A model generated the notes under the pieces. That model saw only the letters and a program-made list of their open reading frames with translations. It did no database searches and was not told where the DNA came from. From contig JAXDQU010000012.1 in assembly GCA_034667685.1 (NCBI GenBank), positions 11,770 to 75,769 of the forward strand: a stretch of 64,000 bases of DNA, given 5' to 3'. Numbering within the stretch: position 1 is the stretch's first letter; every line of letters begins with the position of its first letter. The translations under genes and the position numbers were made by a program. The DNA is from Thermoplasmata archaeon. Lineage in GTDB: Archaea > Thermoplasmatota > SW-10-69-26 > JACQPN01 > JAJPHT01. Positions 1 through 63,133 of this stretch are shown piece by piece.

Positions 1-143
1 TGGGCGCGGTGGCCGCGCGCGAGCGCCTCGCGCTCACCACGCTCGCGGGCGGTGCGCTGGTGCTCGCGGGCGTCGCGATGGCGCTGCTCAGGGCACGCAG
101 GCTGGACCGGCGGACACGGGCTCCGCATGCGGAGGCGCGGTGA
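1..143 (+). CDS. 3' end of probable EamA/DMT-family transporter (partial)
   Basis: Frame 3 reads ...ARERLALTTLAGGALVLAGVAMALL...* , a typical DMT C-terminal helix; truncated by window edge. Confidence 0.55.
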   Translation, partial: GAVAARERLALTTLAGGALVLAGVAMALLRARRLDRRTRAPHAEAR

Positions 144-210
144 GCGCGGAGGCCGCGGAGTCCCAGAACGCCGCGCGCCCCGCGTCCTCCGCGTCTCCGC
201 ATGCGGAGCC
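119..210. repeat. Palindromic element built from ~9-nt CGCGGAGG-like units
   Basis: ggctccgcatgcggag at 119 and its reverse complement ctccgcatgcggagcc ending at 210; lies between convergent genes. Confidence 0.8.
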
Positions 211-229
211 GCGAAGCGCGCGGGCAGGC

Positions 230-1564
230 TCAGACAACCCAGGGCTGGATCGTCGTCGCGTCGTCCACGAGCTTCGGCCCGTCGGTCATGCGCGCGAACG
301 TGATGCGTCCGCCCTCGTCGGCGCTGAGCACGGTGACGTAGCTCACCACGAGCGAGCCGTCGGGGGCGATGGCGCACTGCTGGAAGTCGCCCAGCTCGCG
401 GCCGCTCGTGCACGAGACGCCGCCCTGGCAGGGCTCGCCCACGCGCGCGGGCGCGTCGCTCACGCGGCCGCTGACCTCGGTGGGCGTGGCGGTGTCCGCC
501 CCGACGATCGCGCCGGCCGTCTCGTACCATTCCTTCGCCGGGTCGGGCGCGTGGTACCACGAGAGGCCGAGCTTGCCGGGCGCGCCGGCGGCGACCCACA
601 GGAAGAGCGAAAGGCCCGCCTCGTGGAACGCGGTCCGCGGCTCGCTCCACGTCTTGCCCATGTCGTGGCTGTAGACGTACGCGACGTGGCTCGCGCTCTC
701 GCCGGCGCTCTCGGTCCACGCGACGTAGACCGTGCCCGCGGTGTCGGCGACGGTCTGCGGGAAGCTGTCGGTGAGCTTGCGCTCCTTCACGATGATGTCG
801 TCCTTCCACGTCTTGCCCGCGTCGTGGCTCTGCACGAAGTGGAGGTTGCCGCCCTCGGCGATGCTGAAGGCGACGAAGCCGCCCTTCGTCGCGACGATGG
901 GGCCCGGGTCGCCGCCCACGGGGCTCGCGGTCACGGGGGTCCACGACGCGCCGTTGTCGGTCGTCTTGGCGACCTGCACGCCGGGCTGCCCCGAGTAGTC
1001 GAGGTAGAACGTGCCCGCGTGCTCCGGGTCTGGCCAGAGCCACTGGCGGTCGGTGTCGACGTCGCCCGTCGCGCTGCCGGCCTGCCACGTCTCGCCCTTG
1101 TCGGTGCTGTACGACACGCTCTCAGTTGCGAGGCCGAGCTGGTCCGCGACGACGATCGTGCCCTTGCTATCAATGGCGATGTCGCTGTCGGAGCCGCCCG
1201 GGAGATAGCTGTGGTAGGGCGCGGGGCCGAGGCCCGCCTTGAAGGCGAACGTCTTGCCGCCGTCCTTGGACGTCCAGATGGCGCCCTGGAAGAGGCCCTT
1301 GTCCACCATCTTCGTCGCGTCGAGCGGCCGGGTCGCGTACTTGATGAGGCCGGTGGGCGCGGCGACGATGACCATGCCGTCGGCGGCGACCTTGATCGAG
1401 GGCTCGGACGCGATGCGGTCGGCGTCGACGCGCACCGACTTGGCGAACGTGAGGTTCGTGCCCAGCGTGAGGCCGCCCTGCGAGGCGGGACCGACGTCGG
1501 GCGTCTTGACGCAGCCCGCGAGCGAGGCGCCCAGCACGACGAGGACGAGCAGCGCGGCGCGCAC
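230..1564 (-). CDS. Lipoprotein with BNR/Asp-box repeats (sialidase-like beta-propeller)
   Basis: Lipobox LAGC; repeated SxDxGxTW motifs (SKDGGKTF, STDKGETW, SHDAGKTW, SHDMGKTW). Confidence 0.85.
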   Translation of the reverse strand: MRAALLVLVVLGASLAGCVKTPDVGPASQGGLTLGTNLTFAKSVRVDADRIASEPSIKVAADGMVIVAAPTGLIKYATRPLDATKMVDKGLFQGAIWTSKDGGKTFAFKAGLGPAPYHSYLPGGSDSDIAIDSKGTIVVADQLGLATESVSYSTDKGETWQAGSATGDVDTDRQWLWPDPEHAGTFYLDYSGQPGVQVAKTTDNGASWTPVTASPVGGDPGPIVATKGGFVAFSIAEGGNLHFVQSHDAGKTWKDDIIVKERKLTDSFPQTVADTAGTVYVAWTESAGESASHVAYVYSHDMGKTWSEPRTAFHEAGLSLFLWVAAGAPGKLGLSWYHAPDPAKEWYETAGAIVGADTATPTEVSGRVSDAPARVGEPCQGGVSCTSGRELGDFQQCAIAPDGSLVVSYVTVLSADEGGRITFARMTDGPKLVDDATTIQPWVV

Positions 1565-2958: not shown

Positions 2959-3028
2959 GGGCTCTGGGCTCTGGACTCCGGGCTCAAGGCTCCGGAGCCC
3001 TGAGCCCGGAGTCCAGAGCCCAGAGCCC
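2959..3028. repeat. 70-bp near-perfect palindrome of 7-nt units (GGGCTCT/GGACTCC)
   Basis: 2959-2986 is the exact reverse complement of 3001-3028; inner ggctccggagcc is also palindromic. Confidence 0.95.
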
Positions 3029-3082: not shown

Positions 3083-4168
3083 ATGCGCATCCCGCTCGTG
3101 ACAATGGCCGTCCTCTGCCTGGCTTTCGCGGGGTGCATCGGCGCCAAGCCCGCCCCCGAGACGCCGGCGGCCGTGAACGCCAGCGCGGAGGGGGGCCTGA
3201 ACCTCCAGGCGATGGCGACCGGCGCGCCCACCTCGCCCGTGGCCGCGACGCTGGACGCGCCGCCCGAGTGGCGCCAGGGCGAGTGGTGGACGGTCACCGT
3301 GCACGACGGGTTCGACAGCGCGACCTACACCGGGACGCGCGTCGTCGCCGGCGCGGAGCCCGACGCCTACCTCGTGGGGATGCCGGCCGACAAGTTCAGC
3401 ACGGAGCTGATGGTGCTCCACATCCCAGGCTTCGGCCAGGTGGCGAAGAAGGACCTCAGCTTCGACGTGCACAACGTCAACTTCGCGCCGGTCAGCTTCC
3501 CGCTCACGGAGGGCAAGACCTGGAAGACCGCCTTCGAGGGGCGCCCGATCACCGCGGTCGCGCACGTCAAGAGCCCCACGGAGGCGCTCGTGCAGCTCGA
3601 CGGCCCCAACGACCACATGAACGTCACCTACGACGCGACGATCGGCGAGGTCCGCAAGATCGACTACGCCAACTACGCCACCGTCGAGGTCACGGGCCAC
3701 GGCTACGGCTACCAGGGCCTCGTCACCGTCCCCCACATGTTCAAGCTCGTCTTCCAGCAGTTCCGCCTCGGCGGCGTCGTGGGCCCGGGCAACGCGCCCG
3801 CCGCGCCCGACGAGACCGTGAACGTGGACAACACGTACGACCGCGTCAGCTTCGTCGAGATCCTCGCGGGCGCCAGCGCGCTCACCGGCCAGGCGGCGCC
3901 CACGGGCGGCGGCTACTTCGACGAGCAGGTCACCGGCCCCGACGGCAAGGTCTACGAGACGACGCTCATGCCCACCGAGGGAGGCTCGTCCCCCTACAAG
4001 CTGGCCTTCTTCAGCGTCGACAAGCCCGGTGGCGTCTGGAAGTTCCACCACGTCGCCGCCGGCCCCGGCGTCGCCGAGGCCGAGGGCATCGCGTACCACG
4101 TGTACGACATCGAGCTTCCCTCCGGGCGCGTCCTTCCGAGCACGGGGCAGCACCACCACGGGGGCTGA
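3083..4168 (+). CDS. Hypothetical lipoprotein
   Basis: Signal peptide with FAGC lipobox, host-like codon usage, His-rich tail. Confidence 0.8.
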   Translation: MRIPLVTMAVLCLAFAGCIGAKPAPETPAAVNASAEGGLNLQAMATGAPTSPVAATLDAPPEWRQGEWWTVTVHDGFDSATYTGTRVVAGAEPDAYLVGMPADKFSTELMVLHIPGFGQVAKKDLSFDVHNVNFAPVSFPLTEGKTWKTAFEGRPITAVAHVKSPTEALVQLDGPNDHMNVTYDATIGEVRKIDYANYATVEVTGHGYGYQGLVTVPHMFKLVFQQFRLGGVVGPGNAPAAPDETVNVDNTYDRVSFVEILAGASALTGQAAPTGGGYFDEQVTGPDGKVYETTLMPTEGGSSPYKLAFFSVDKPGGVWKFHHVAAGPGVAEAEGIAYHVYDIELPSGRVLPSTGQHHHGG

Positions 4169-4181
4169 CGAACGTCCGAAG

Positions 4182-4262
4182 GGGCTGTGGACTCAGGACT
4201 CTGGGCTCCCGCCTGCCATGCGCCCGGAGAGCCCAGAGTCCCGAGTCCAGAGCCCGAGTCCC
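4182..4262. repeat. Palindromic element of 7-nt units, same family as 2959..3028
   Basis: gggctgt-ggactca-ggactct-gggctc ... gagccca-gagtccc-gagtcca-gagcccg-agtccc. Confidence 0.9.
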
Positions 4263-13499: not shown

Positions 13500-15932
13500 T
13501 CAGGAGAGGGATTCAAGAACCACCTGAGAGGTCCCATCCTCCAAAGCTTCGACGCGCAGCACGGTCTCCGCGGCGTCCTTCACGTCGCCCACGTGCGTGA
13601 TGATGAGGATCTGGCGGAAGTGCCCCGTGAGCCCCTTGAGGGCGAGGAGGATGTTCTGCTTGCGGATCTCGTCCTGGCTGCCGAAGATCTCGTCGAGCGC
13701 GAGGAAGCCGAAGCCCTCGGTGCCGGCGCGCTCGGCGACGACCTGCGAGACGGCGAGGCGCAGGCACAGGTTCGCCAGGTCGCCCTCGCCGCCGCTGAAG
13801 CGCGCCAGCTCGAAGTGCTGCCCTTCGTCGAGGACGCGCAGGCCGTAGTCCTCCGCGACCTCGAGGTCGGCGTAGCGCCCCTCGGTCATCTCGCGGAAGA
13901 GGCGGCCCGCGTGGTTCGACAGCAGCGGCCGGAGCCGGCCGATGAGGTGGTCCTTGAACTCGGGCAGGAGCCCCTGCTCGCGGTCGCCCGCCAGCAGCTC
14001 GAGCAGCGTCACGCGCGCCGCGAGCGCCTCGGCCTGCTTCGCGAGCGCCTCCTGCTGCGCGATCTGCGCCTGCGCGGCGCGCGCCGTCTCCGCGAGGCGC
14101 GCCAGCTCGCCCTGGACGCGCTCGCGGGTGACGCGCGCCTCGGTCAACCGCCCCTCGGCCGACGCGGCCGCCGTCTCCGCCGCGGCGTGCGCGGCCTCGT
14201 CGAAGCCCAGCGCGTCGCGAGCCTGCGTGGCGGCCGCGCGCTGGGCCTCGGCCTCGGCCGCCGAGAGCGCAAGCTCGCCCAGGAGCGCCACGAGGTCCGT
14301 CTCGCGCTCGGCCTGCGCGCAGAGCGCCGCGTGCCGGCGCGCGTCCGCGTCGAGCGCCTGCGCCAGCGCGCGGGCGGCCTGCTCGGCGGCCGCGTCGTAG
14401 GGCTCCTCGCCCAGCGCCGCGGCCTGGCCCGCGAGGCGCTCGTGGCGCGCGCGGGCATCGACGACGCGCGCCTGGAGCCCGGCGAGGCGCGTCTCGTCGG
14501 CCACCAGCTTGTCGAGCTTGACGCGCAGCTCCTTCTCGCGCTCCGCGAGCGCCGCGAGGCCGGCGCGCCCCTTCGCCTCGTCGTCGCGCAGCTTCGCCAG
14601 CGCGAGGCCCATCTCGGTGAGCGCGGCGCGGTGCGCGTCGATCTCGACGCCGAAGCCGTGGAGCAGCTCGCCGTGGTGCTCGCGCAGCGGCCGCGTGCAG
14701 GTGGGGCAGGGCGTCTCGGGGCCCATCTCGCGGATGCGCTTCGCCTTGGCCTCCGCCTCGTTCAGCTGGCGCGCGCGCTCCTTCCGCGAGGCCTCGACCC
14801 CGCTGGCCTGCTGCACGGCGGCGTCGTACGCGGCCTGCGTCTGCGGGCGCTGCGTCGCGACGCGGTCGGCCAGCGCGCGCACGGTGCCCAGCGCGGCGAG
14901 ACGCTCCTGGGCCTGCGCGATCTCCGTCTCGGCGGCCTGCGCGTCGGCCAGGGCGCGCGTCATCTCCGCGCGCACCCGCGCGAGCTCCTCGTGCTTGACG
15001 CGCCGCGCCGCGAGCGCTTCGAGCCGCGCCTTGGCCTCGGGGATCTGCGCCAGGCGCGGGGCGAGCGCGTCGGCCTGCGCGGCGGCCTCGCGCGCCTTGG
15101 CGAGCTCCGCGGCGCGCGTCTGCTGCTGGGCGGCCAGGTGCCCCACGCGCTGCTCGGCGAGCCGGATCGCCGCGAGGACGAGCTTGTGCTCCTCCGCGCG
15201 CTTCCGGCCGGCGTCGCGGACTTCGCGGAGCGACTCGACCTCCTCGACGAGCTGCGCGATGCGCGCCTCCGCTTCCGCGACGCGCGCGCGGGCGGCCTCG
15301 CTTTCGATCTGCGCGCGCTGGACCGACTCGGCGAGCGCGGCCGGGTCGACCAGCGCGCTGCGCACGCCCGCCAGGTGCGCGCGGGCCTCGCGGCGCTGCG
15401 TGCGCGCGAGCTGGATCGCGCCGTCCACCGCGTCGAGGCGCAGCAGGCCGATGAGCAGCCGCTTGCGGTCGGAGGCCTTGGCGTCCGTGAGCGCGGAAAG
15501 CTCGCGCTGCCTTGCCACGAGCGTCGTGAAGAACGCCTCGCGGTCCATGTGGAAGAGGCGCTCCACGTAGGCCGTCGCCTCCTTGCTCGACGCGGCGCCG
15601 GGCGGCACGACGAGCTTGCCGTCCACCTTCACGGAGGCGACGTGCGCCTCGGACTTCCCGAGCAATTCGCGCACGACCTCGTAGGTGTGCGCGCCGAAGC
15701 GGAACTGGAGCAGCACGCGCACGTCGTCGCCCGGCGCGGCCCCCCGGCGCTTGATGAGGTCCTTGCCCGTCCTCGCGGCGTCGTGCCCGTAGAGGCACCA
15801 GCCCACGCTCTCCAGCAGCGTGCTCTTGCCCGCGCCATTGCGGCCCACGAGCGCGATGACGCCGTCGGGCAGCTCGAGGTCGACGAACTTGAACCGCCGG
15901 AAGTTCTGGATGCGGAGGCGGTCGATCCTCAT
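13500..15932 (-). CDS. rad50: DNA double-strand break repair ATPase Rad50/SbcC
   Basis: Walker A GRNGAGKS, coiled coils, CPTC zinc hook, FSGGE signature, LALDE Walker B; start MRIDRL. Confidence 0.95.
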   Translation of the reverse strand: MRIDRLRIQNFRRFKFVDLELPDGVIALVGRNGAGKSTLLESVGWCLYGHDAARTGKDLIKRRGAAPGDDVRVLLQFRFGAHTYEVVRELLGKSEAHVASVKVDGKLVVPPGAASSKEATAYVERLFHMDREAFFTTLVARQRELSALTDAKASDRKRLLIGLLRLDAVDGAIQLARTQRREARAHLAGVRSALVDPAALAESVQRAQIESEAARARVAEAEARIAQLVEEVESLREVRDAGRKRAEEHKLVLAAIRLAEQRVGHLAAQQQTRAAELAKAREAAAQADALAPRLAQIPEAKARLEALAARRVKHEELARVRAEMTRALADAQAAETEIAQAQERLAALGTVRALADRVATQRPQTQAAYDAAVQQASGVEASRKERARQLNEAEAKAKRIREMGPETPCPTCTRPLREHHGELLHGFGVEIDAHRAALTEMGLALAKLRDDEAKGRAGLAALAEREKELRVKLDKLVADETRLAGLQARVVDARARHERLAGQAAALGEEPYDAAAEQAARALAQALDADARRHAALCAQAERETDLVALLGELALSAAEAEAQRAAATQARDALGFDEAAHAAAETAAASAEGRLTEARVTRERVQGELARLAETARAAQAQIAQQEALAKQAEALAARVTLLELLAGDREQGLLPEFKDHLIGRLRPLLSNHAGRLFREMTEGRYADLEVAEDYGLRVLDEGQHFELARFSGGEGDLANLCLRLAVSQVVAERAGTEGFGFLALDEIFGSQDEIRKQNILLALKGLTGHFRQILIITHVGDVKDAAETVLRVEALEDGTSQVVLESLS

Positions 15933-15957
15933 CCGCGACACTCCTCCCAGCGTCTTG

Positions 15958-16039
15958 CTCCAGCCACAGAGGACACAGAGGCCACAGAGGATGATTTGTC
16001 TCTCGTCCTCTGTGGCCTCTGTGTCCTCTGTGGCTGGAG
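15958..16039. repeat. Palindrome of 9-nt CACAGAGG(A/C) units between mre11 and rad50
   Basis: 15958-15991 is the exact 34-bp reverse complement of 16006-16039. Confidence 0.95.
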
Positions 16040-16056
16040 GGAGACAGGCCATGCCA

Positions 16057-17175
16057 TCATTTGGGATCCCCGCCTGCCGCGCTCGCCAGCAATGCCTTCG
16101 CCTCGCGGAGCACCGCGTCCCGGTCCGCGCCGAGCGTCCGCTGGGAGAGGAAGCCTTCGAACTCGTCTTCGAGCGAGCCCAGCGCGGCGGAGACGACGCC
16201 CGCGTTCTCGCGGCGCACGATCTCGGGCTGGAGGTCGAAGTGGAACGCGCCCTGCGTGAGCTGCTTGACGCGGCGGAAGTCCAGCGTGGCGTGGACGTGC
16301 GCCGGGATGCCGGTGACGCGCAGCCGCGCGATGGCGTCCTGGAGGTCGGCGGCCCCGAGCGCGTCGTACACCGCGCCGGGGGCGTCGGCCTCGGCCATGC
16401 CCTCGCAGCGCACCGGGGGCAGCATCTCCATGCGGCGCGCGGGGAGCGAGAGCGGCGTCACGGTGCCGCGCGCCAGGTCGACGAGGTTGACGCTCTTCGT
16501 CTCGCCGCATTCCTTGAACGTGCAGCGCTCCGTGCTGCCCGCGTACCAGACCTTGGGCGCCACCTCGACCGCGCGGTGGTAGTGCCCGAGCGCCACGTAG
16601 TCCATCCCCGGGGGAATCTCGTTCTGCGGGACGACCTGCTCGTGGAACTCGCCCGTCCTGAAGTCGCCCACGCCCACGACGCCCGCGTGCAGCGCGGCCA
16701 CGTTCCAGCGCGCGCCCTCCGCCGGGCGCACGGCGCGCAGCTGCGCCAGGAGCGCGTCGTTGTCCGCGGCGTGCGGGGTCGCGTGGATCGCCAGGTCGCC
16801 GACGCGCACCACCTCGGTCTTGCCCTTGTAGACCGCGCGCACGCCCGGGATGAACTCCAGGAGGCGCAGCACCGCGCCCGTCTCGCGCAGCCTCGGGGCC
16901 TCGTGGTTTCCCGAGATCACGACGAAGGGAATGCCCGCCTCATGCAGCCGGCGGCACTGGTCCATGACGTGGTGCAGGGCGCGGTTCGTGGGGCGCACGC
17001 TATCAAACAGGTCGCCGCTGTGGAGCACGACGTCGACGCGCTTCTCGAGCGCGACGTCGATGGCGCGGCGGAAGGCGTCGAAGAAGTCCTGCTCGCGGGC
17101 GTTCAGTCCCTCTGGTGTTACCCGGCTGTAGGCCGCGAATCCGACGTGGGTGTCGCTGACGTGGAGGAGCTTCAT
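16057..17175 (-). CDS. mre11: Mre11/SbcD nuclease
   Basis: HVSDTHVG, HSGDLFD, ISGNHE, YVALGHYH, YAGS. Confidence 0.95.
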   Translation of the reverse strand: MKLLHVSDTHVGFAAYSRVTPEGLNAREQDFFDAFRRAIDVALEKRVDVVLHSGDLFDSVRPTNRALHHVMDQCRRLHEAGIPFVVISGNHEAPRLRETGAVLRLLEFIPGVRAVYKGKTEVVRVGDLAIHATPHAADNDALLAQLRAVRPAEGARWNVAALHAGVVGVGDFRTGEFHEQVVPQNEIPPGMDYVALGHYHRAVEVAPKVWYAGSTERCTFKECGETKSVNLVDLARGTVTPLSLPARRMEMLPPVRCEGMAEADAPGAVYDALGAADLQDAIARLRVTGIPAHVHATLDFRRVKQLTQGAFHFDLQPEIVRRENAGVVSAALGSLEDEFEGFLSQRTLGADRDAVLREAKALLASAAGGDPK

Positions 17176-17195
17176 GGTGCGGCCTTCCCGTCCGG

Positions 17196-17291
17196 GCCGC
17201 CTCTGGCGGGGAAACCGCGGAATCTCCGAATCTCCGAATCACGCGGAGATTCTGGGATGCCGAGATTCCGTCCTTTTCCGCCGGAGGCGGC
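17196..17291. repeat. Palindromic element of 8-nt GAATCTCC units between herA and mre11
   Basis: gccgcctctggcgg / ccgccggaggcggc outer arms; inner (gaatctcc)n against (gagattc)n. Confidence 0.85.
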
Positions 17292-17299
17292 TGGAAGCG

Positions 17300-18874: not shown

Positions 18875-18956
18875 GCGGCAGGCTAAGCCGCTTCACATCT
18901 TCATGATGGAGGGCTGGCCGAAACGAAGGTGGGTTGCGCGTGGAGCGCGTGGAGCC

Positions 18957-19886: not shown

Positions 19887-20037
19887 GCCGGGCCGATCCG
19901 CGCCGCGCGCCAAGAAGGTGCGTGTCCGATCGCGTCGGCCGCGCGCGCGGAACCGGACACGCGGATGCGCCACGGGGGCGAAAACGCGCGCCGCGCCGGC
20001 GGAGGGGTGGTGAGGCCGCGCCGCGTCCGTCTCTTGC

Positions 20038-23640: not shown

Positions 23641-23645
23641 CGTGC

Positions 23646-24697: not shown

Positions 24698-24729
24698 GGG
24701 CCCCCGCGGCGCGTCCCCGACCCGCCCTT

Positions 24730-24820
24730 GTCTTCGTGGCGCCCCTTTCTCAACACCGAGAATCCCGAAATCCGCGGATGCCTCGGATGCGCGGTGTCAG
24801 GAAGGGAGCGCCACGAAGAC
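24730..24820. repeat. MITE/REP-like palindromic element, copy 1
   Basis: 13-bp perfect terminal IR gtcttcgtggcgc/gcgccacgaagac; 45-bp core 24753-24797 matches 47658-47702 (reverse strand) at 44/45. Confidence 0.9.
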
Positions 24821-24838
24821 GAACATGGGTCAGGAACG

Positions 24839-26275
24839 CTACTCCGGCAGCCCGTCGTGCCGCGCCACGGTGCGCAGCCTCGCCTCGTGCCGCTTCTTGG
24901 CGATCCACCACGCCAGCCGCGCGAAGATGCCTTCGCCCCGCGAGAGCACGGTCTGCGCGGTGGGGTGGCGGTGCAGCAGCTCGTGGCGCCGGCCGTGGTG
25001 GCGGCGGCGCGGCGCGTAGAGCTGGAAGAGCGGGAAGCCCAGGAGCGCGAGGGGCGCGCCCACGAGGATCGCGCGCCAGCCGCAGGCGGCGACGAGGAGG
25101 AGCGCGGCCGCGGCGCCGAGGATCGGCAGGAGCGGCGTGCGGATCGGGCGGAACGGGTCCTTGCGCGCGAGGACCCACGCCGCGCCCGCGGTCGCGAGGA
25201 AGGAGAGCGCCACGAAGAAGACGGTGGCGCCGATGAGGAGCGTGAGGCCGCCGGCGAGCGTGGCGAGGAGCGAGAGGCCGCTGATGGCGAGGAGCGCGCG
25301 CAGCGGGACGCCGGAGCGCGTGAGCTTGCCGAGCGCGGGCGGGAGGTAGCCGTCGGCCGCGAGGGCGTGCGTGAGGCGCGAGGCGCCCAGGAGGTTCGCC
25401 TGGTCCGCGCCCAGGATCGAGACGAGCGCGCCCAACCCGAGGAAGGCGCCGGCCACTGGACCGGCCACGCGCGCGGCGGCCACGACGAGGGGCGCGCTGG
25501 TCGCGGCGATGTCGCCCTGCGGCAGGATGGCGAGGAGCGCGCCGTTCACGAGAAGGTAGGCGAGAAGGCTGAACGCGAGGCCCACGGCGATGGCGATCGG
25601 GATGCTGCGGCGCGGGTTGCGCACCTCGGCCGCGGGGAGCGTGGCGACCTCGAAGCCGGTGTAGGCCCAGAAGATGACCATGAACGCCGTCGCGAAGGCG
25701 AGCGGGCCGCCCGTGGCGAGCGGCTGGAGGTGAGAGGCGGACCCGGCGGGGGCGTGCCACGCGGCGGCGATGCCCAGCGCGACGAGGAGCGCGAGGGGCG
25801 CGAGCTTCAGGAACGAGAGCGCGGCGCCCAGGCGCGAGGCGGTCTTGGCGGGGACGAGGTTCGTCACGAGGACGAGGAGGACGAAGGCGCCCTTCACGAG
25901 GTCGTCCTGCCACCACGTCATGAAGGGGAGGAAGCCGTGGAGGTACTGCACGAACGCGGCGGGGAAGACGGCGGCGCCCAGGAGCTGCGCGAGCAGGATG
26001 CACCAGCCCACGAGGAAGCCGGCGCGCTCGCCGAACGCATCGCGGGCGTAGGCGTACGCACCCCCCTCGCTGGGCGCCATCTGGGCGCACGCGCTGAAGT
26101 TGAGGGCGATGACGAACGCCACGACGCCGGCCAGCAGCCAGAGCGCCAGCGAGGCCGCGCCCACGAGCGGCGTGGTCAGGCTCGCCGCGACGTAGATGTC
26201 CGCGCCCACCACCGCGCCCACGACGAGGGCGGTCAGGTCGAAGGCGGAGAGCGTGCGGGCGCGAAGCTCGGGCAT
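24839..26275 (-). CDS. APC-family amino acid permease
   Basis: GAVVGADIY, EGGAYAYAR.AFG, FWAYTGFE, EVRNPRRSIP. Confidence 0.92.
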   Translation of the reverse strand: MPELRARTLSAFDLTALVVGAVVGADIYVAASLTTPLVGAASLALWLLAGVVAFVIALNFSACAQMAPSEGGAYAYARDAFGERAGFLVGWCILLAQLLGAAVFPAAFVQYLHGFLPFMTWWQDDLVKGAFVLLVLVTNLVPAKTASRLGAALSFLKLAPLALLVALGIAAAWHAPAGSASHLQPLATGGPLAFATAFMVIFWAYTGFEVATLPAAEVRNPRRSIPIAIAVGLAFSLLAYLLVNGALLAILPQGDIAATSAPLVVAAARVAGPVAGAFLGLGALVSILGADQANLLGASRLTHALAADGYLPPALGKLTRSGVPLRALLAISGLSLLATLAGGLTLLIGATVFFVALSFLATAGAAWVLARKDPFRPIRTPLLPILGAAAALLLVAACGWRAILVGAPLALLGFPLFQLYAPRRRHHGRRHELLHRHPTAQTVLSRGEGIFARLAWWIAKKRHEARLRTVARHDGLPE

Positions 26276-29322: not shown

Positions 29323-29609
29323 GGTGATCGCACGAAGCGACCTCACATGGTCCACGAGCGCGCCGAGAGGCCCCGCAAGCCGCGCGCGAGATAGGGCGGG
29401 CGCGCATCGAAGCGCGCGGGCGTGGCCGTCACGCCGCTGGCGGGCTTGCCCCCCAGACCCCCCATTTGGCGCTCGGCAATCGAGATTCCACGCCAACGAC
29501 CGCTTGCAGAGCGGTGTCCGTTCCGTGATGTCTCGTCATCGCGCCGCGCCCTCCAACCCGCGCCTGGCATATGGCGCTTCGGGCACTCGGCTCACACGAA
29601 GAGCGACGG

Positions 29610-29700
29610 CCGACGCCTCCGGATTCGCCGGCTGGCCGCGGGCGCGCTCCGCGCGGAAAGCATGGAATCTCGGAATCCCGCCTTTCCCGCCGGAGGCGGC
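29610..29700. repeat. Degenerate copy of the 8-nt-unit element at 17196..17291
   Basis: Shares ggaatctcggaatc units and the terminal ccgccggaggcggc; more 8-nt-like units at about 29465-29595. Confidence 0.6.
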
Positions 29701-29780
29701 GCAGACCATCGTGATCCAGTGCCGGAAGCTCCGGCCCCGCGAGGAGCGAACGCTCAAATCCCAGGGCGCCCTCGCCGCGT

Positions 29781-29870: not shown

Positions 29871-29996
29871 ACCGTTCCCGTTCTCGTTCACGTTCACGGC
29901 GTTCGTTCCACGTTCACGTTGCACGTTCCGCGTTCGTGCAACGTGCAACGACAACGTGAACGTGGAACGACGCCCGAGAACGTGAACGAGAACGGT
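29871..29996. repeat. Palindromic element of 6-nt CGTTCA/TGAACG units, copy 1
   Basis: (cgttcN)n left arm, (Ngaacg)n right arm; shares tgcaacgacaacgtgaacgtg with 32860..32983. Confidence 0.92.
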
Positions 29997-32859: not shown

Positions 32860-32983
32860 CGTTCACGTTCACGTTCTCGTTCACGGAAATCGTTGCGCGT
32901 TCACGTTCCACGTTTCTCGTGCAACCTGCAACGACAACGTGAACGTGCAACGTTGTCCGTGAACGAGAACGTGAACGTGAACG
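32860..32983. repeat. Palindromic element of 6-nt units, copy 2
   Basis: 32860-32887 is the exact 28-bp reverse complement of 32956-32983. Confidence 0.95.
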
Positions 32984-47639: not shown

Positions 47640-47715
47640 TCGTGGCGCTTCTTTCCCACACCGCGCATCCGAGGCATCCGCGGATTCCGGGATTCTCGGT
47701 GTCGGAAAGGGAGCG
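47640..47715. repeat. MITE/REP-like palindromic element, copy 2
   Basis: Core 47658-47702 is 44/45 identical to the reverse complement of 24753-24797. Confidence 0.9.
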
Positions 47716-48532: not shown

Positions 48533-48991
48533 GTGAGCAAGCGCGAGCAGGAGAAGAAGACGAGCCTCGACGCCCTCGCGCGCGTCGCGTACGCCGTCGG
48601 GGGCGGCAATCCCCACCCCGCGCCCCCGCCGAAGCCCAAGGCGAAAGCCCCTCAGCCTCGGCCTCAGCCTCAGCCCCAGCCTCGGCCCCTCGCGAAGCCC
48701 GCGGAGCCCGCGCTCGATCGGGCCCGCCGCGCGCAGCTCGCGGACCGCAAGGCGAAGCTCGAGGAGGAGCGCGCGCTGCGGGAGCGGCGCGAGCGCGAGC
48801 TGGCGGGCGGCTCGAACCTCGCGTGGCGCGGCGCGTGGACCGCGGGCAACCTGCCCGGCGTGCACCGCACCGCGTTCGACCGCGTCGAGCCCTCGCTGGC
48901 CGACAAGATCCACGGCGTGCTGGGCGACGCGAAGGAGAAGGACGGGCGCGCGAAGAATCGCGACAAGGGGCGCAGGCAGGGCGGGCGCTGA
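48533..48991 (+). CDS. Basic low-complexity hypothetical protein
   Basis: Host-like codons, PQ linker, charged helix; GTG start inferred. Confidence 0.55.
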   Translation: MSKREQEKKTSLDALARVAYAVGGGNPHPAPPPKPKAKAPQPRPQPQPQPRPLAKPAEPALDRARRAQLADRKAKLEEERALRERRERELAGGSNLAWRGAWTAGNLPGVHRTAFDRVEPSLADKIHGVLGDAKEKDGRAKNRDKGRRQGGR

Positions 48992-49901: not shown

Positions 49902-50043
49902 AAACGACGGAACCTCCGCCCGTGACCCCCGTTGGAAACCCGAGAACCCGCGGACCCGACGACCCGAATCCAAAGATCGGGTTTCTCGGGTCCGCGGGTC
50001 CGCGGGTTTTCGCCCAGGTCACGAGGCGGAGATTCCGTCGTTT
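49902..50043. repeat. Long palindromic element with internal ACCCGNGG-type units
   Basis: aaacgacggaacctccgcc-cgtgacc / ggtcacgaggcggagattccgtcgttt outer arms; tandem acccgaga/acccgcgg against ccgcgggt units. Confidence 0.88.
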
Positions 50044-50929: not shown

Positions 50930-51085
50930 GCGCGCGCCCTGCTGGAGAGCGCGGCGGGCGCCACGGCGCTTGTCGACGAGCGCGGCGTCATCGTGCTGGT
51001 CAACCAGCGGGCCGAGCGCCTCTTCGGCCATCCGCGGGACGAGATGCTCGGCAAGCCCATCGAGGCGCTGATGCCGGCGCGTGCG
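50930..51085 (+). pseudogene. Remnant of PAS domain N-terminal half
   Basis: ALLESA..LVDERGVIVLVNQRAERLFGHPRDEMLGKPIEALMP; no in-frame upstream start; ends just before a repeat element. Confidence 0.65.
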
Positions 51086-51108
51086 GGCGGGTGGAGCGTT
51101 GACGACGA

Positions 51109-51190
51109 GGCTCTGGGCTCAGGGCTCGGGGCTCCCGGTTTGCTCTGCCCCCGGAGAGCCCCGAGCCCTGAGTCCTGAGCCCAGAGCCCT
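51109..51190. repeat. Palindromic element of 7-nt units, third copy
   Basis: ggctct-gggctca-gggctcg-gggctc ... gagcccc-gagccct-gagtcct-gagccca-gagccc. Confidence 0.9.
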
Positions 51191-51272
51191 GAAGTCTCTC
51201 CAGCGCCCCGCCCCACCCAATGGTTAAATAGGAGGCTTTCATTCGGCGCGCTATCCGCCCGGGTGAAATTCC

Positions 51273-51440
51273 ATGTCCAAGGGAACCTCCTCGAAGGGCA
51301 AGTTCCACACGCCCAACCACATCCGCTGCCGCCGCTGCGGGCGCCACGCGTACCACATCCAGAAGCACCGCTGCGCTTCGTGCGGCTTCGGCGCCACCGC
51401 GAAGCTGCGCTCCTACGCCTGGGCGAAGCTGAAGAAGTGA
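51273..51440 (+). CDS. rpl37e: 50S ribosomal protein eL37 (not in the ORF track)
   Basis: MSKGTSSKGK..HIRCRRCGRHAYH....CASCGFG; TATA-like gttaaata at about 51223. Confidence 0.97.
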   Translation: MSKGTSSKGKFHTPNHIRCRRCGRHAYHIQKHRCASCGFGATAKLRSYAWAKLKK

Positions 51441-60767: not shown

Positions 60768-61978
60768 GCGCGGCGCTTCCACCGCTTCACGTCGCGGCCC
60801 GAGAGGCGCAGCCCCCCGCGCGCCTCGACGCGATCGAGGATCTCCTGCTCGTCGAGGTCGCGCAGCCCGCGCGGCCCCTCGACGCCCGCCGCCACGAGCG
60901 CCACCGCGCTGTCGATGGGCACGCCGACCTCCTGCACAAGGTTCGCGACGTGGAGCCACGAGGCGAGCGCGTCCGCGGCGAGGCCGGTGCGCGAGGCGAG
61001 GTCGTGCGGGTCGTGGCCGGCCAGCGACGCGAGGCCGTCGACGCCCGCGTCGCGCAGCGCCTGCTCCTCCGCGGGGCCCACGCCGCGCAGCCGGCGCAGG
61101 TCGGTCTCCCCGGTCTCCTCGCCGAGCACCTCGGCCTCGATGGGCTCGTCCTCGACGATCGTCGCCTCGAGGATCTCCTCGTCCGGCAGGACCTCCATCT
61201 CGACGACCTCCTCCTCGACTGGCTGGGGCTGAGGCTCGGGTGGGGGCTCGTCCGCGAAGATCTCCTCCGGGGGCGCCCAGGGCGAGGCGGGCTCCTCCTC
61301 CACGAGGGGCTCGACGGGCACCTCCTCCACGGGCTCCGGCTCGGGCTGCTCGTCCGGCTGCGGCTCGGGCTCCGGCTCCGCGGGCGGGCGGAAGATGTAG
61401 TCGGACTCCGTCTCGGGCTCGACGAAGGGCTGCGGCTCCGCGACGGGCTCGGGCTCGCGGCGCGCCACCTCGAACCCCTCGTCCTCCACGACCGTCTCGC
61501 CGCGCGAGACCTCGAAGAGATCGTCCGTGGGCTCCACGGCCGCCACCTCGTCGTCGAACGTGGGCTCCGGTTCCGGCTCCGGCTCACGGACGGGCATCAC
61601 GGCCTCGGCGGGCTCGTCCTGCGCGTCCGCCATCAGCGGGACCGGCGGCGCCTCGACCAGGGGCTCGGTGATGATATCATAGAGCGGCAGCGGCGCGGGC
61701 TGGGGCTCGGGCTGAGGCTGAGGCTGAGGCTGAGGCTGGGGGGCTGCGGGCGGGATGACGACCGGCGCCGCGGCGGGCGGGAGCGAGGGGCGCTCCAGGA
61801 TGACCGAAGTGCGCGTGGCGACGCGGACCGCGACCTGGCGGTGGAGGCGCGCGCAGACGCCGCACAGGAGGTCCTGGTCCTTCACCGGCTGCGCGAGGCA
61901 CGCCTCGCAGGGCAGGTAGTCGAGCACGAGGCGGAGCTTCGAGCTGGCGTCAGGAAGGTCGCCGGCCATCGCAGCCAT
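60764..61978 (-). CDS. Zn-finger + Pro/Glu-rich linker + helix-hairpin-helix (DUF4332-like) protein
   Basis: CEAC..CGVC; long PEPE/PQPQ region; DLRRLRGVGP..ALRDAGV. Confidence 0.75.
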   Translation of the reverse strand: MAAMAGDLPDASSKLRLVLDYLPCEACLAQPVKDQDLLCGVCARLHRQVAVRVATRTSVILERPSLPPAAAPVVIPPAAPQPQPQPQPQPEPQPAPLPLYDIITEPLVEAPPVPLMADAQDEPAEAVMPVREPEPEPEPTFDDEVAAVEPTDDLFEVSRGETVVEDEGFEVARREPEPVAEPQPFVEPETESDYIFRPPAEPEPEPQPDEQPEPEPVEEVPVEPLVEEEPASPWAPPEEIFADEPPPEPQPQPVEEEVVEMEVLPDEEILEATIVEDEPIEAEVLGEETGETDLRRLRGVGPAEEQALRDAGVDGLASLAGHDPHDLASRTGLAADALASWLHVANLVQEVGVPIDSAVALVAAGVEGPRGLRDLDEQEILDRVEARGGLRLSGRDVKRWKRRA

Positions 61979-62005
61979 GACGGGCGCGCACCGGGAGGCG
62001 CCGCC

Positions 62006-62905
62006 TTAACCCTTGCTGGGCGCGCCGCGCGAGCCGGGCGGCCCGCTCGCGTCATCCTCGGGCTCCACGTGCACGAACGTCTCCTTCACGCCCAGCCGCT
62101 CCGCCAGGCGCCGCTCGACCTCGTCCGCGATCGCGTGCGCGCCCGCCACGTCCTCCTTGTCGACCACGAGGTGCATCTGCACGTACGGCTCGCGCGGCGG
62201 ACCCCGGCTGCGGATGTCGTGCACGCTGCGCACGCCGGGCACCTCCATCACGATCGCCGCCACGTCGGCCGGATCGAACGCGATGCGGTCCGTGAGCACC
62301 GGCAGCACGTCGCGGAACACCGAGTACGCCGCGTACGCAATGAAGAACGCCACGCCCAGCGCGAGAAGCGGGTCGAGCCCCGGCACCCCCAAGCGGTGCA
62401 AGCCCAGACCCACGAGCACGGCCGCCGAGACCGCGATGTCGGCCCGCGCCTGGCGCGAATCCGCCAGCAGCACGTCGCTCCCGTGCCGCCGCGCCTCGCG
62501 CCCCTCCAGCCACGAGACGAGCACGTTCGCCACCAGGCTCGCCACCATCACGCCCAGCGTGAGCAGGTCGACCGCCGTGGCCTGCGGATGCACGACGCGA
62601 TCCACCGCCTGCCGCCCCAGCTCGAAGGCCGTGAGCAGCAGCAGCGCCGAGATGACGAACGCCGCCAGCGTCTCGTACTTCGTGTGCCCGTACGGATGGT
62701 CCTCGTCCGGCGGCCGCGTGGAATATCGCAGGACGAGAAGGGCCACACCGTTCGCCAGCGCATCCACGCCCGAGTGCAACCCATCGCCCACCACCGCCAG
62801 GCTGTTGGCGAGGCTCCCCACGACGATCTTCGCCACCGCGATGAGCAGGTTCGCCACGAGCACCGCGACGATGACCATCTGCACGCGGCGCGCGTAGCCC
62901 TTCAT
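62006..62905 (-). CDS. Cation diffusion facilitator (FieF-like)
   Basis: DGLHSGVD, PPDEDHPYGHTKYE, VHDIRSR, VHVEP. Confidence 0.95.
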   Translation of the reverse strand: MKGYARRVQMVIVAVLVANLLIAVAKIVVGSLANSLAVVGDGLHSGVDALANGVALLVLRYSTRPPDEDHPYGHTKYETLAAFVISALLLLTAFELGRQAVDRVVHPQATAVDLLTLGVMVASLVANVLVSWLEGREARRHGSDVLLADSRQARADIAVSAAVLVGLGLHRLGVPGLDPLLALGVAFFIAYAAYSVFRDVLPVLTDRIAFDPADVAAIVMEVPGVRSVHDIRSRGPPREPYVQMHLVVDKEDVAGAHAIADEVERRLAERLGVKETFVHVEPEDDASGPPGSRGAPSKG

Positions 62906-63133
62906 TCTCCGACGTTATGCCTGGTCGAGGGGATGAGACTGACGGATGCGGGGCGCTAGGAGAGTTGCAGCGGGGCAAACTGGGGGCGGTCGGGGCGCTC
63001 CGGCTCCCGCGTCGCGCGGACCGCCAACACGCGGACACGCCAACACGCCACGCGGGGCAGGGCGGCGGCAGGCCCGGGGGGCCCGCACGCGGCAGCAACT
63101 TGAAATGGCGCCGACGATTTGCGCCACGCAGCC

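What the first reader, a model, noticed from the sequence alone, without database searches (positions are those of the whole stretch)
119..63056. Window-wide family of palindromes built from tandem microsatellite units (6-9 nt) in an archaeon
Seen: at least 12 intergenic elements share one design, a few tandem short units, a short spacer, then the same units inverted, although unit sequences differ. 7-nt: 2959, 4182, 51109. 6-nt: 29871, 32860. 8-9 nt: 119, 15958, 17196, 24730, 29610, 47640, 49902, and a one-armed copy at about 63006-63056. Arms match perfectly over 28-34 bp even where neighbouring units differ, so symmetry is maintained or recently copied. Inference: non-autonomous members of several related mobile families, or a DNA/RNA hairpin code. 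I recall similar inverted microsatellites flanking bacterial GxxExxY and four-helix-bundle genes, but this is unverified and no such gene is in this window.
Basis: partly seen in the sequence, partly recalled or inferred. Interest (0 to 1): 0.8.

Follow-up and report, generated by a model that had tools for sequence, protein, structure and literature searches.

The report
Gene-less hairpin relics of IVS-type cassettes
The window's odd intergenic palindromes are real and belong to hundreds of hairpin elements in this soil archaeon that look like stripped-down copies of small cassettes carrying a nuclease or a four-helix-bundle gene, a probably mobile element type that I did not find described in print.

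Summary
Observation confirmed. Ten of the 13 listed places are strong palindromes built from tandem 6-9 nt units. Genome-wide I found 411 such hairpins against 2 in a shuffled genome. Of these, 375 fall into ten families, and 371 of the 375 are intergenic.

This archaeal genome has 4 four-helix-bundle (PF05635) and 3 GxxExxY (PD-(D/E)XK nuclease) genes. Six of the seven are enclosed by half-arms of the same unit types as the gene-less hairpins. One further cassette, on contig C60, holds an internally deleted GxxExxY gene and so is an intermediate form.

The families are lineage-specific. The heptamer pattern gives 326 hits here and 0 in four congeners. In 23 comparisons of syntenic spacers, the same family was present once, another family three times, and no palindrome 19 times.

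Unit type goes with gene type, polarity is fixed, and elements nest in each other's tips. No HUH transposase or reverse transcriptase gene was found.

Best reading: these are MITE-like deletion derivatives of cassettes of the 23S-rRNA "intervening sequence" (IVS) type. How they move is inferred, not shown.

The scan had noted these hairpins before in this genome, and the cassette design in other genomes.

The parts
119..210 (.). Palindrome of the family with 8-9 nt GCGGAG-type units and a conserved foot. It lies between convergent genes.
   Evidence: Arms 43 nt, 81% complementary. DNA fold -51.2 kcal/mol, z -8.0. Assigned to family 7 of my clustering. The same family's arms enclose the GxxExxY gene on C21. 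No palindrome in the syntenic spacer of congener G003.
2959..3028 (.). Zero-loop palindrome of heptamer units (GGRCTCN), in a divergent spacer.
   Evidence: Arms 35 nt, 97%. z -10.3. Family A, 71 copies. Not found at the syntenic place in G003.
4182..4262 (.). Heptamer (GGRCTCN) hairpin with the family's conserved loop of about 20 nt. It starts just after the stop codon of the gene at 3083-4168.
   Evidence: Arms 27 nt, 93%. z -7.2. The loop is shared with other copies in both orientations. G003 carries an element of a different unit type at the same place.
15952..16045 (.). Hairpin of 9-nt units (CACRGAGGN) between the rad50 and mre11 homologues.
   Evidence: Arms 43 nt, 93%, of which 34 nt are perfect. 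z -14.4. Family B, 53 copies. The spacer has no palindrome in G003 and holds a hairpin of another family in G004.
17196..17291 (.). Hairpin of 8-nt GAATCNC-type units with a 14-nt foot, between the mre11 and herA homologues.
   Evidence: Arms 32 nt, 75%; feet 14 nt, 93%. z -5.8. The same foot and units enclose the deleted GxxExxY gene on C60. A degenerate copy of the same type lies at the same site in G003; G004 has another family there.
24711..24839 (.). Long imperfect palindrome of 'family 8'. Its arms are only partly tandem units.
   Evidence: Arms 55 nt, 75%. z -5.9. 20 copies genome-wide.
29609..29701 (.). Decayed remnant of a GAATCNC-type element.
   Evidence: Only the 12-nt feet pair, at 92%. 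A few units can be seen in the sequence.
29878..29995 (.). Hairpin of 6-nt units (CGTTCN), abutting the 3' end of the gene at 30008-31603.
   Evidence: Arms 44 nt, 91%. z -10.7. In G003 the conserved block upstream of the hairpin runs almost straight into the gene end, with no hairpin.
32860..32983 (.). Hairpin of 6-nt units (CGTTCN), downstream of the aminotransferase gene.
   Evidence: Arms 48 nt, 94%. z -10.8. No palindrome downstream of the orthologous gene in G001-G004.
47651..47709 (.). Short 'family 8' palindrome in a divergent spacer. This is the weakest member.
   Evidence: Arms 20 nt, 85%. z -2.3.
49902..50030 (.). Hairpin of 8-nt ACCCGA-type units (49936-50009) nested inside remnants of an outer GAATCNC-type element.
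   Evidence: Arms 35 nt, 80%. z -5.8. My flank test found the outer flanks complementary. The orthologous spacers are 16 nt in G001 and 49 nt in G004, with no palindrome.
51109..51192 (.). Heptamer (GGRCTCN) hairpin with the conserved loop, upstream of a small 55-aa ORF at 51273-51440.
   Evidence: Arms 26 nt, 92%. z -7.9. No family-A element in the orthologous spacers of G001, G002 or G003.
63006..63056 (.). One-armed array of 8-nt CGCCAACA-type units (family D) with no partner arm.
   Evidence: TRF finds 2.2 copies of a 16-nt period. Direct repeat at 63022-63048. Does not fold beyond chance, z -1.4.

Best explanation
The window's palindromes are gene-less, MITE-like derivatives of small 'IVS-type' cassettes.

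A full cassette is two inverted arms around one small gene. Each arm is a foot plus 3 to about 19 tandem 6-9 nt units. The gene encodes either a four-helix-bundle protein (PF05635/TIGR02436, the family first seen in 23S rRNA intervening sequences) or a GxxExxY PD-(D/E)XK nuclease (PF13366/TIGR04256). Internal deletion of the gene leaves foot, units, a short loop, and the mirror image. As single-stranded DNA or as RNA this folds into a long hairpin.

Shown:
- The anatomy of the elements.
- At least 375 copies in ten families.
- Near-exclusive intergenic location.
- Fixed arm polarity.
- Shared arm types between the gene-bearing and gene-less forms, in three congeneric genomes.
- A half-deleted intermediate.
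- Lineage-specific families, and turnover at syntenic spacers.
- Nesting of one element in the tip of another.
- An association between unit type and gene type.

Inferred:
- The elements spread by a hairpin- or cruciform-dependent, DNA-level route with no classical transposase.
- The cassette protein binds the repeated units on both arms. This is most plausible for the GxxExxY nuclease, whose D, E and K catalytic residues are invariant.
- Existing hairpin tips and gene-end spacers are preferred landing sites.
- The two arms are kept alike by copying or mismatch correction within the folded-back element.

Any use by the host, such as transcript-end stabilisation, would be secondary.
For: **Reality and scale.** The genome has 411 hairpins against 2 in a shuffled genome. 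375 fall into ten families of 71, 53, 43, 42, 42, 33, 31, 29, 20 and 11 copies. 371 of the 375 are intergenic, covering 30,828 bp or 0.89% of the genome. 36 hairpins lie within 100 nt of the 248 contig ends, so the count is a minimum.

**Link to genes.**
- The genome has 4 PF05635 and 3 TIGR04256 genes.
- 6 of the 7 are enclosed by half-arms. One pair is 43 nt and 100% complementary.
- The seventh gene abuts a complete hairpin.
- The arm types are those of the gene-less families A, C, J, K and G.
- C60:1211-1579 has arms of the window's GAATCNC-type family around 275 nt. That interior holds a GxxExxY gene lacking profile positions 37-98.
- In G003 and G004 too, gene-less hairpins share arm type with that genome's own GxxExxY cassette.

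**Common descent within families.** Conserved feet, and conserved loops in both orientations, are visible in the copy listings.

**Polarity.** Strict parses give 49 clusters for family A, 19 for B, 16 for G and 13 for C, all in one arm order and 0 in the reverse order. Family H gives 9 against 3.

**Turnover.**
- The heptamer pattern gives 326 hits here (14 for the reversed control). It gives 0 in 19 of the 20 other genomes of the class, including 4 congeners, and 1 in G013.
- In 23 site-by-genome comparisons of syntenic spacers, the same family was present once, another family 3 times, and no palindrome 19 times.

**Nesting.** 21 composite arms, with several outer-inner combinations.

**Unit type goes with gene type.**
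- Enclosing arms were found for 41 of 59 assessable PF05635 genes and 19 of 27 GxxExxY genes.
- At least two CRCN[GA]A units occur in the 5' arm of 13 of 19 GxxExxY cassettes against 0 of 41 PF05635 cassettes. The complement has them in 0 of 19 and 1 of 41.
- 113 of the 375 gene-less hairpins carry this motif, always in the 5' arm.

**Arms co-vary.**
- Within-copy mismatch is 0.05-0.12 per nt, against 0.11-0.37 between copies.
- A copy's own partner arm is the best or tied match in 127 of 316 copies.

**The design is wider.** 29 of 45 assessable bacterial loci encoding the nearest relatives of these proteins have enclosing arms.

**Nuclease.** D79, E89 and K91 are invariant in 28 sequences. 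The predicted fold (pLDDT 85.5) matches PD-(D/E)XK nucleases only.
Against: - No movement was observed, and I saw no target-site duplication in the flanks (by eye).
- Only 6 of the 375 copies are identical over the whole element, so there is no sign of a very recent burst.
- Five families (B, D, E/F, H, I) have no intact gene-bearing copy in this assembly.
- 18 of 59 PF05635 genes and 8 of 27 GxxExxY genes have no arms detectable by my ungapped method.
- The CRCN[GA]A motif was defined after I had looked at the GxxExxY arms. Many of the cassettes come from related genomes, so 13/19 against 0/41 overstates independence.
- Hairpins were found by arm complementarity, so the low within-copy mismatch is partly built in. 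In 189 of 316 copies, some other copy's arm matches as well or better.
- At the 29878 site, the insertion goes with a changed gene end rather than a clean insertion. That also fits recombinational flank replacement.
- Gene calls are my own crude codon-bias calls.
Confidence: 0.6

Rival explanations
1. They are REP/REPIN-type elements: intergenic palindromes copied by a domesticated HUH (RAYT, IS200-like) transposase that acts on single-stranded hairpins.
For: Same general look: short, GC-rich, intergenic, multi-family palindromes with no target duplication.
Against: The Y1_Tnp family (PF01797) has no match in this 99% complete genome, while the same search rings in 6 of 14 control genomes. The arms are tandem unit arrays, not a single conserved palindrome. 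The genes found between arms are PF05635 and GxxExxY, not RAYTs.
Confidence: 0.05
2. They are host-function hairpins: transcription terminators, transcript-end stabilisers or a regulatory 'hairpin code', kept by selection at each site.
For: Very stable folds. Many sit just after stop codons, for example 4182 and 29878. Family D copies carry a conserved tail with a T-rich run that abuts the stop of convergent genes.
Against: Of 331 placed hairpins, 88 lie in divergent, 84 in convergent and 159 in tandem spacers. That is close to the shares of spacer length, 26%, 21% and 53%. Sites are not conserved in congeners: 19 of 23 comparisons have no palindrome and 3 have another family. Arm mismatches show no sense-strand G-U preference, 71 against 84. 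No Rfam family reaches its threshold.
Confidence: 0.12
3. They grow in place. Replication slippage and fold-back synthesis at small seed palindromes build symmetric unit arrays locally, without any transfer between sites. The small genes land in them secondarily.
For: Unit order differs between almost all copies; 51 distinct left arms among 65 in family A. Arm length ranges from 16 to 103 nt. CCTCAG arrays reach about 19 units. Few copies are identical.
Against: Dozens of copies in unrelated spacers share the same non-repetitive foot and loop, which implies descent from one source. The deleted gene on C60 shows the direction cassette to hairpin. The same arm type with the same gene family recurs across phyla, for example the hexamer arms in Planctomycetota, Myxococcota and Chlamydiae loci.
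Confidence: 0.1
4. They spread mainly by homologous recombination of gene ends with their hairpin-bearing flanks between related lineages (flank swapping), not by transposition.
For: At the 29878 site the last codons of the adjacent gene differ from G003 together with the hairpin's presence. Family D elements come with a conserved tail that starts at the stop codon of different genes.
Against: It does not explain the same element next to unrelated genes within one genome. It also does not explain nesting in hairpin tips, or 326 heptamer-pattern hits in one species against none in four congeners.
Confidence: 0.08

Closest known systems
ORF-bearing intervening sequences (IVS) of bacterial 23S rRNA (Coxiella burnetii, Leptospira; S23p ORF)
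   Same: A small gene of the PF05635 family sits in the loop of a long stem formed by terminal inverted repeats. In Coxiella the stem is 28 bp and the element is called selfish, with origin and mobility unknown (PMC4990558, passages read). This genome's four PF05635 genes match the profile and the solved relative 2gsc.
   Different: Here the elements lie between protein genes, not in rRNA. This genome's 23S gene has no insertion: 2930 nt against a 2987-position model. The arms are tandem 6-9 nt unit arrays. A second gene family (GxxExxY) uses the same design. Gene-less copies outnumber gene-bearing ones by about 50 to 1. The host is an archaeon. RNase III excision, which defines an IVS functionally, could not be tested.
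MITEs (miniature inverted-repeat transposable elements) of bacteria and archaea
   Same: Short, non-coding, multi-copy, inverted-repeat-bounded, lineage-specific, and derived from gene-bearing relatives by internal deletion. An intermediate was found.
   Different: No recognisable transposase in the parent element. No target-site duplication seen. The 'terminal repeats' are the whole element and are built from tandem microsatellite units.
REP/BIME/REPIN elements with RAYT transposases
   Same: Intergenic GC-rich palindromes in hundreds of copies. A 2025 survey reports REP-like palindromes in archaea too (PMC12306157, passages read). That text has no occurrence of 'tandem' or 'RAYT'.
   Different: No Y1/HUH gene in the genome. 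Different internal architecture and different associated genes.
Subterminal repeat arrays of eukaryotic hAT/CACTA transposons (recalled from general knowledge, not tested)
   Same: Short protein-binding motifs repeated in both ends in inverted orientation. This is a model for how a cassette protein could recognise the arms.
   Different: A different domain of life, and no homology. The comparison is one of working principle only.

Membership tests
IVS-type cassette (ORF-bearing 23S rRNA intervening sequence) | Encodes a PF05635/TIGR02436 four-helix-bundle protein. | tested here: met
   4 genes in the genome score over the Pfam cut-off. Pfam 57.4 bits and TIGR02436 56.1 bits for the C124 copy. 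None lies in the window itself; the window holds only gene-less copies.
IVS-type cassette (ORF-bearing 23S rRNA intervening sequence) | Terminal inverted repeats form a long stem that encloses the ORF. | tested here: met
   3 of the 4 PF05635 genes and 3 of the 3 GxxExxY genes are enclosed by complementary arms of 23-46 nt at 85-100%. Across all loci examined, 41 of 59 and 19 of 27.
IVS-type cassette (ORF-bearing 23S rRNA intervening sequence) | Inserted in a helix tip of the 23S rRNA gene. | tested here: not met
   The 23S gene at C89:71156-74085 is 2930 nt and matches model positions 1-2987 with no large insertion. All elements lie between protein or tRNA genes.
IVS-type cassette (ORF-bearing 23S rRNA intervening sequence) | Excised from the transcript by RNase III. 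| not testable with these tools
   An RNase III-like domain gene exists at C78:55583-55942, 45.5 bits. By eye it lacks two of the usual acidic residues. No usable RNA reads: contigs only.
MITE | Short, non-coding, multi-copy element bounded by inverted repeats. | tested here: met
   375 copies in ten families, median arms 27-43 nt.
MITE | Internal-deletion derivative of a gene-bearing element with the same ends. | tested here: met
   Arm types are shared with 6 gene-bearing cassettes. C60:1211-1579 holds a GxxExxY gene missing profile positions 37-98. Five families have no intact parent in this assembly.
MITE | Target-site duplication and a transposase acting in trans. | tested here: inconclusive
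   No duplication seen by eye in the flanks of 71 + 42 + 33 listed copies. No transposase identified. The GxxExxY nuclease is a candidate only.
REP/REPIN-RAYT | A RAYT (Y1 HUH transposase) gene in the same genome. | tested here: not met
   PF01797: 0 matches in the 99% complete genome. The control rings in 6 of 14 genomes.
Hairpin terminator | Placed downstream of genes and absent from divergent promoter spacers. | tested here: not met
   88 of 331 placed hairpins lie in divergent spacers, about the share of spacer length, 26%.

The most novel reading that the evidence does not exclude
These hairpins and their parent cassettes are a distinct, undescribed class of mobile element, shared by bacteria and archaea, that needs no transposase, integrase or reverse transcriptase.

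In this reading, a small PD-(D/E)XK nuclease (GxxExxY) or a pentameric four-helix-bundle protein reads a 'barcode' of tandem 6-9 nt units on two inverted arms. The folded-back element invades hairpin tips and gene-end spacers. The long-unexplained intervening sequences of 23S rRNA are just the subset that landed in rRNA helix tips.
Probability: 0.3. Interest if true: 0.85.

Novelty: new variant of a known kind. Interest (0 to 1): 0.7.

Why it matters
The origin and mobility of 23S rRNA intervening sequences have been open since the 1990s (PMC4990558). The two small gene families involved are widespread 'hypothetical' genes.

This genome offers the whole life cycle in one place:
- Intact cassettes of both gene types.
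- A half-deleted cassette.
- Hundreds of gene-less hairpins in about ten arm types.
- Nesting of one element inside another.
- Species-level turnover.

It also gives a concrete, testable rule: unit type goes with gene type, and polarity is fixed. That turns a vague 'selfish element' idea into bench experiments, namely binding and cleavage of cognate against non-cognate arms.

It also extends the system to archaea. The nearest relatives of the archaeal proteins found outside this genome were all bacterial, which points to transfer between the two domains.

Practically, these hairpins break short-read assemblies. 36 of them lie within 100 nt of the 248 contig ends.

Tried and rejected
**Public reads.** Two near-identical soil-metagenome holders were laid on 15001-35000. 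Their contigs simply break at the palindromes, and no contig joins across an element. Nothing can be said about empty sites or transcription.

**Family-A pattern of four units in other collections.** There were 26 viral stretches, and at least 122 metagenome stretches (80 held as loci). I examined all 106 loci held. 101 are solo arrays, 4 are hairpins, 1 has arms apart, and 2 have a PF05635-like ORF nearby. The degenerate pattern is not specific enough to trace donors.

**Rfam.** The gathering search of the window gave only one tRNA. The permissive search of 29320-30010 gave only sub-threshold microRNA-precursor matches on the hairpin itself, which is generic hairpin likeness.

**RNA-level selection.** G:T against A:C arm mismatches are 174 against 189. 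G-U on the sense strand against the antisense strand is 71 against 84. No bias.

**RNase III idea.** A domain match occurs in only 2 of the 21 class genomes, G000 and G013. The G000 protein looks degenerate. I did not pursue it.

**Reverse transcriptase.** None found, so an Avd-like retro-route has no support here.

**GxxExxY fold.** No solved homologue by sequence. The best Foldseek matches are Cas4, lambda-type exonucleases and archaeal Hjc, at E about 1e-3 and TM 0.3-0.47. This is a generic PD-(D/E)XK fold, and no specific subfamily can be named.

**Target-site duplication.** None seen by eye. I ran no formal test.

**Naming the organism.** The genome-collection scan leaves out the window's own records.

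**Literature searches.**
- 'GxxExxY': 3 papers, none on this subject (listing only).
- 'intervening sequence protein' + 'inverted repeats' + 'tandem': 0 papers.
- TIGR02436/PF05635/four helix bundle protein/S23p: 74 papers, 25 listed.
- PDDEXK_3/PF13366: 2 papers.
- 'archaea' + 'intergenic' + 'palindromic' + 'heptanucleotide repeats', at least 3 of the 4 terms: 1,093 papers, 15 listed.
- IVS + 23S rRNA + four-helix bundle + mobile: 71 papers, 12 listed.

None that I saw describes repeat-armed cassettes outside rRNA or their gene-less hairpins. The library is open-access only. The family notes of the TIGRFAM curators, which I recall as mentioning flanking repeats, could not be consulted.

Full report
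**1. What is there**

The window comes from a 3.48-Mb, 71% G+C, 124-contig genome rated 99% complete. It is archaeal. The window encodes S17e, deoxyhypusine synthase, an LSM protein, a Rad50-Mre11-HerA cluster and PurP-type domains. The large rRNA scores 2703 bits on the archaeal model.

Ten of them pair as inverted repeats of 26-55 nt at 75-97% complementarity.

Folded as single-stranded DNA, 10 of the 12 stretches tested have z-scores from -5.8 to -14.4, and 0 of 200 shuffles fold as well. Three members are weaker:
- 47651-47709 is weak (z -2.3).
- 29609-29701 is a decayed remnant.

All lie between my rough, codon-bias gene calls.

**2. Scale and anatomy**

My own ungapped palindrome scan of the whole genome finds 411 hairpins (score >=16, loop <=70 nt), against 2 in a first-order Markov reshuffle of the genome.

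Clustering by shared 7-mers puts 375 of them into ten families of 71 to 11 copies. I label the families by their unit:

| Family | Unit |
|---|---|
| A | GGRCTCN |
| B | CACRGAGGN |
| C | GGGAAGNN |
| D | CGCCAACA |
| E/F | GAATCNC and ACCCGA types |
| G | CACGAAGN |
| H | CCGATT type |
| K | GCGGAG/GCGACG type with a conserved foot |
| 'Family 8' | only partly tandem units |
| I | CGTTCN |

A CCTCAG type (J) occurs mostly as outer arms.

Location and amount:
- 371 of the 375 are intergenic.
- Together they cover 30,828 bp, or 0.89% of the genome.
- 36 hairpins lie within 100 nt of the 248 contig ends, so the true number is higher.
- Of 331 hairpins with a gene on each side, 159 are in tandem, 88 in divergent and 84 in convergent spacers.
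- That is close to the shares of spacer length, 53%, 26% and 21%. It is not what dedicated terminators would show.

Each family has its own non-repetitive foot. In families A and B there is also a conserved loop that occurs in both orientations. Family D carries a conserved tail of about 75 nt. These features mean descent from common sources, not independent growth.

Arm order is fixed. In strict parses, families A, B, G and C give 49, 19, 16 and 13 clusters in one order and 0 in the reverse order. Family H gives 9 against 3.

Twenty-one hairpins have composite arms, with one family outside another. The outer > inner combinations are J > B in 7, J > G in 3, H/A mixes in 6, E > F in 2, F > E in 1, and 2 others. 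The window's 49902-50030 is such a case.

**3. The link to genes**

Searching the whole genome gives 4 PF05635 genes and 3 TIGR04256 genes, all over the curated cut-offs. GxxExxY is Pfam PDDEXK_3.

Six of the seven genes sit between half-arms of unit arrays:

| Gene | Contig | Arm type | Arm match |
|---|---|---|---|
| PF05635 | C124 | C | 43 nt, 100% complementary |
| PF05635 | C49 | A | |
| PF05635 | C115 | J | |
| GxxExxY | C21 | K | 46 nt, 91% |
| GxxExxY | C55 | G | 30 nt, 97% |
| GxxExxY | C11 | a rare type | 23 nt, 96% |

The fourth PF05635 gene, on C40, abuts a complete C-type hairpin.

A relaxed profile search of the six-frame translation adds one more locus, C60:1211-1579. There, arms with the same foot and units as the window's 17196-17291 enclose 275 nt. 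That interior encodes GxxExxY profile positions 3-36 fused to positions 99-120, so the catalytic core is deleted. This is the expected intermediate between a cassette and a hairpin.

The same relation holds in two congeners:
- A G003 hairpin shares foot and units with G003's own GxxExxY cassette.
- The G004 hairpins in the rad50-mre11-herA spacers share units with G004's own cassette.

**4. Turnover**

The heptamer pattern (three units) has 326 matches in this genome, against 14 for the reversed control. It has 0 in 19 of the 20 other genomes of the class, including four congeners at 86-94% completeness, and 1 in G013.

I compared syntenic spacers in the congeners. 'None' means no ungapped palindrome of score >=13 or 14 in the stretch fetched. 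In 23 site-by-genome comparisons covering 11 of the window's elements:
- The same family was present once: the mre11-herA element in G003, degenerate.
- A different family was present 3 times: the 4182 site in G003, and both rad50-mre11-herA spacers in G004.
- None was present 19 times.

The 24711 site could not be assessed because of a rearrangement.

In G001 the spacers orthologous to the 49936 and 51109 sites are only 16 and 52 nt long.

At the 29878 site, G003 aligns up to the hairpin and resumes in the adjacent gene. However, the gene's last codons differ, so this is not a clean insertion footprint.

Repeated occupation of the same spacers by different families, together with the nesting, suggests preferred landing sites.

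**5. Beyond this genome**

PF05635 genes occur in 9 of the 21 genomes of the class, and one of those genomes has 13. GxxExxY genes occur in 22 of 201 sampled genomes of the phylum, concentrated in two families.

The nearest relatives of this genome's PF05635 proteins in the genome collection are 55 loci, all bacterial, at 33-70% identity over the best matched segment. They come from Myxococcota, Planctomycetota, Longimicrobiales, Acidobacteriota, Chlamydiae and others. The window's own records are left out by the tool. Of the 45 assessable loci, 29 have enclosing arms, and 14 of those are clearly periodic over the whole arm. One hexamer arm type recurs in several phyla.

Pooling all loci, 41 of 59 assessable PF05635 genes and 19 of 27 GxxExxY genes have enclosing arms.

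Unit type goes with gene type:
- At least two CRCN[GA]A units lie in the 5' arm of 13 of 19 GxxExxY cassettes and 0 of 41 PF05635 cassettes.
- On the complement the counts are 0 of 19 and 1 of 41.
- Among the gene-less hairpins, 113 of 375 carry the motif, all in the 5' arm: B 44 of 53, D 30 of 42, G 33 of 33.

Caveats: I defined the motif after seeing the arms, and the cassettes are not independent.

**6. Symmetry**

- Within-copy arm mismatch is 0.05-0.12 per nt, against 0.11-0.37 between copies of one family.
- A copy's own partner arm is the best or tied match among all right arms of its family in 127 of 316 copies, and strictly best in 70.
- 82 of the 375 have perfect arms.
- Only 6 of the 375 are identical over the whole element.

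Detection by complementarity also inflates the effect.

Mismatch types are symmetric (174 G:T against 189 A:C) and show no sense-strand G-U excess (71 against 84). This favours a DNA-level process, such as copying or mismatch correction within a folded-back element, over selection on an RNA stem.

**7. Mechanism**

What is shown is listed in sections 1-6.

What I infer is this:
- The cassette protein reads the repeated units on both arms. The GxxExxY nuclease keeps D79, E89 and K91, as well as the G, E and Y of its name motif, in all 28 aligned sequences. Its predicted fold (pLDDT 85.5) matches only PD-(D/E)XK nucleases: Cas4, lambda-type exonucleases and Hjc, all weakly.
- The element moves as, or through, a hairpin or cruciform.
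- Gene-less copies are mobilised in trans, or simply persist.

No HUH transposase and no reverse transcriptase gene was found. That removes the REP/RAYT route and an Avd-like retro-route in this genome.

**8. Comparison with what is known**

The closest described thing is the ORF-bearing IVS of 23S rRNA. It has the same gene family in the loop of a stem made by terminal inverted repeats, and its origin and mobility are unknown (PMC4990558, passages read).

Here the rRNA is intact. The arms are microsatellite arrays, a second gene family shares the design, and gene-less copies dominate.

The elements work like MITEs, but there is no known transposase and no target duplication.

A 2013 survey noted PF05635 genes in cas loci next to nucleases (PMC3936711, passages read).

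My six literature searches found no description of repeat-armed cassettes outside rRNA or of their hairpin derivatives. The library is open-access only.

**9. Earlier notes of this scan**

An earlier agent on another piece of this genome read the hairpins as REP/MITE-like insertion families spread in one soil archaeal lineage. Eight notes on other genomes describe the repeat-armed cassettes in bacteria. I reached the gene link independently, before the first look-up.

This report adds:
- The link between the two sets of notes, within a single genome.
- The deleted intermediate.
- The rule that unit type goes with gene type, and the fixed polarity.
- The absence of a RAYT.
- The site-by-site turnover table.

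**10. Verdict**

I rate it a new variant of a known kind. The mechanism is open but testable.

Noticed in passing
G000 contig C78:55583-55942 (locus L029:1438-1911): A 157-aa ORF with an RNase III-type domain (45.5 bits). Such a match occurs in only 2 of the 21 genomes of the class, G000 and G013, and in none of the archaeal control genomes. By eye it lacks two of the usual acidic residues of the signature motif.
   Followed up: partly
Family D copies, e.g. C33:1711-1870, C79:101659-101820, C55:6165-6330; the window's contig starts in one (C12:1-65): The CGCCAACA-type hairpin is followed by a conserved tail of about 75 nt that includes an A/T-rich run. The tail ends exactly at the stop codon of different convergent genes, so it looks like a portable 3' end module. 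11 tails were found with a short motif.
   Followed up: partly
window 29432-29561 and 29776-29866: Two non-coding blocks in the 686-nt spacer are conserved in congeners. The second is 89% identical to G003. The first has hits of 88-93% on several G002 contigs. No Rfam family matches. They may be small RNA genes or another repeat.
   Followed up: partly
window 32988-33165 (and the uncalled stretch 32810-34221): The sequence just after the 32860 hairpin matches several contig ends in G003, and also places in G001 and G004, at 70-74% identity. It is probably another multi-copy element. I called no gene in this 1.4-kb stretch.
   Followed up: no
window 26724-26789: A palindrome that is not unit-built: 23-nt arms at 91%, 20-nt loop. 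It belongs to a small separate family of 5 copies genome-wide.
   Followed up: no
window 21447-21482, 48650-48687, 61698-61738: CCTCAG-type hexamer arrays, the same unit as the J arms. The latter two lie inside my gene calls, so they would read as dipeptide repeats; the first lies just past the end of a call (20828-21442). They are one-armed.
   Followed up: no
window 15952-17291 and the orthologous spacers G004:C232:2757-2816 and 3975-4035: Both spacers of the rad50-mre11-herA cluster, the hairpin-processing machinery itself, hold hairpin elements. They belong to different families in G000 and G004. G003 has one empty spacer and one with a degenerate copy.
   Followed up: partly
upstream of the ORFs in C124:75964-76465, C21:30986-31544 and C55:18831-19401: A 15-nt leader is shared just inside the arm, a few tens of nt upstream of the start codon, in one PF05635 cassette and two GxxExxY cassettes. 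A similar stretch precedes the deleted gene on C60. It may be a promoter or ribosome-binding module common to both cassette types.
   Followed up: no
window 50960-51090 and 51273-51440: A stretch that reads like a PAS-domain fragment, judged by eye only, lies upstream of the 51109 hairpin. A 55-aa zinc-ribbon-like ORF that my gene caller missed lies downstream; from memory it looks like ribosomal protein L37e, which I did not test. Its TATA-like box is conserved in G001.
   Followed up: no
window 63978-64000: A run of 23 G at the very end of the window.
   Followed up: no
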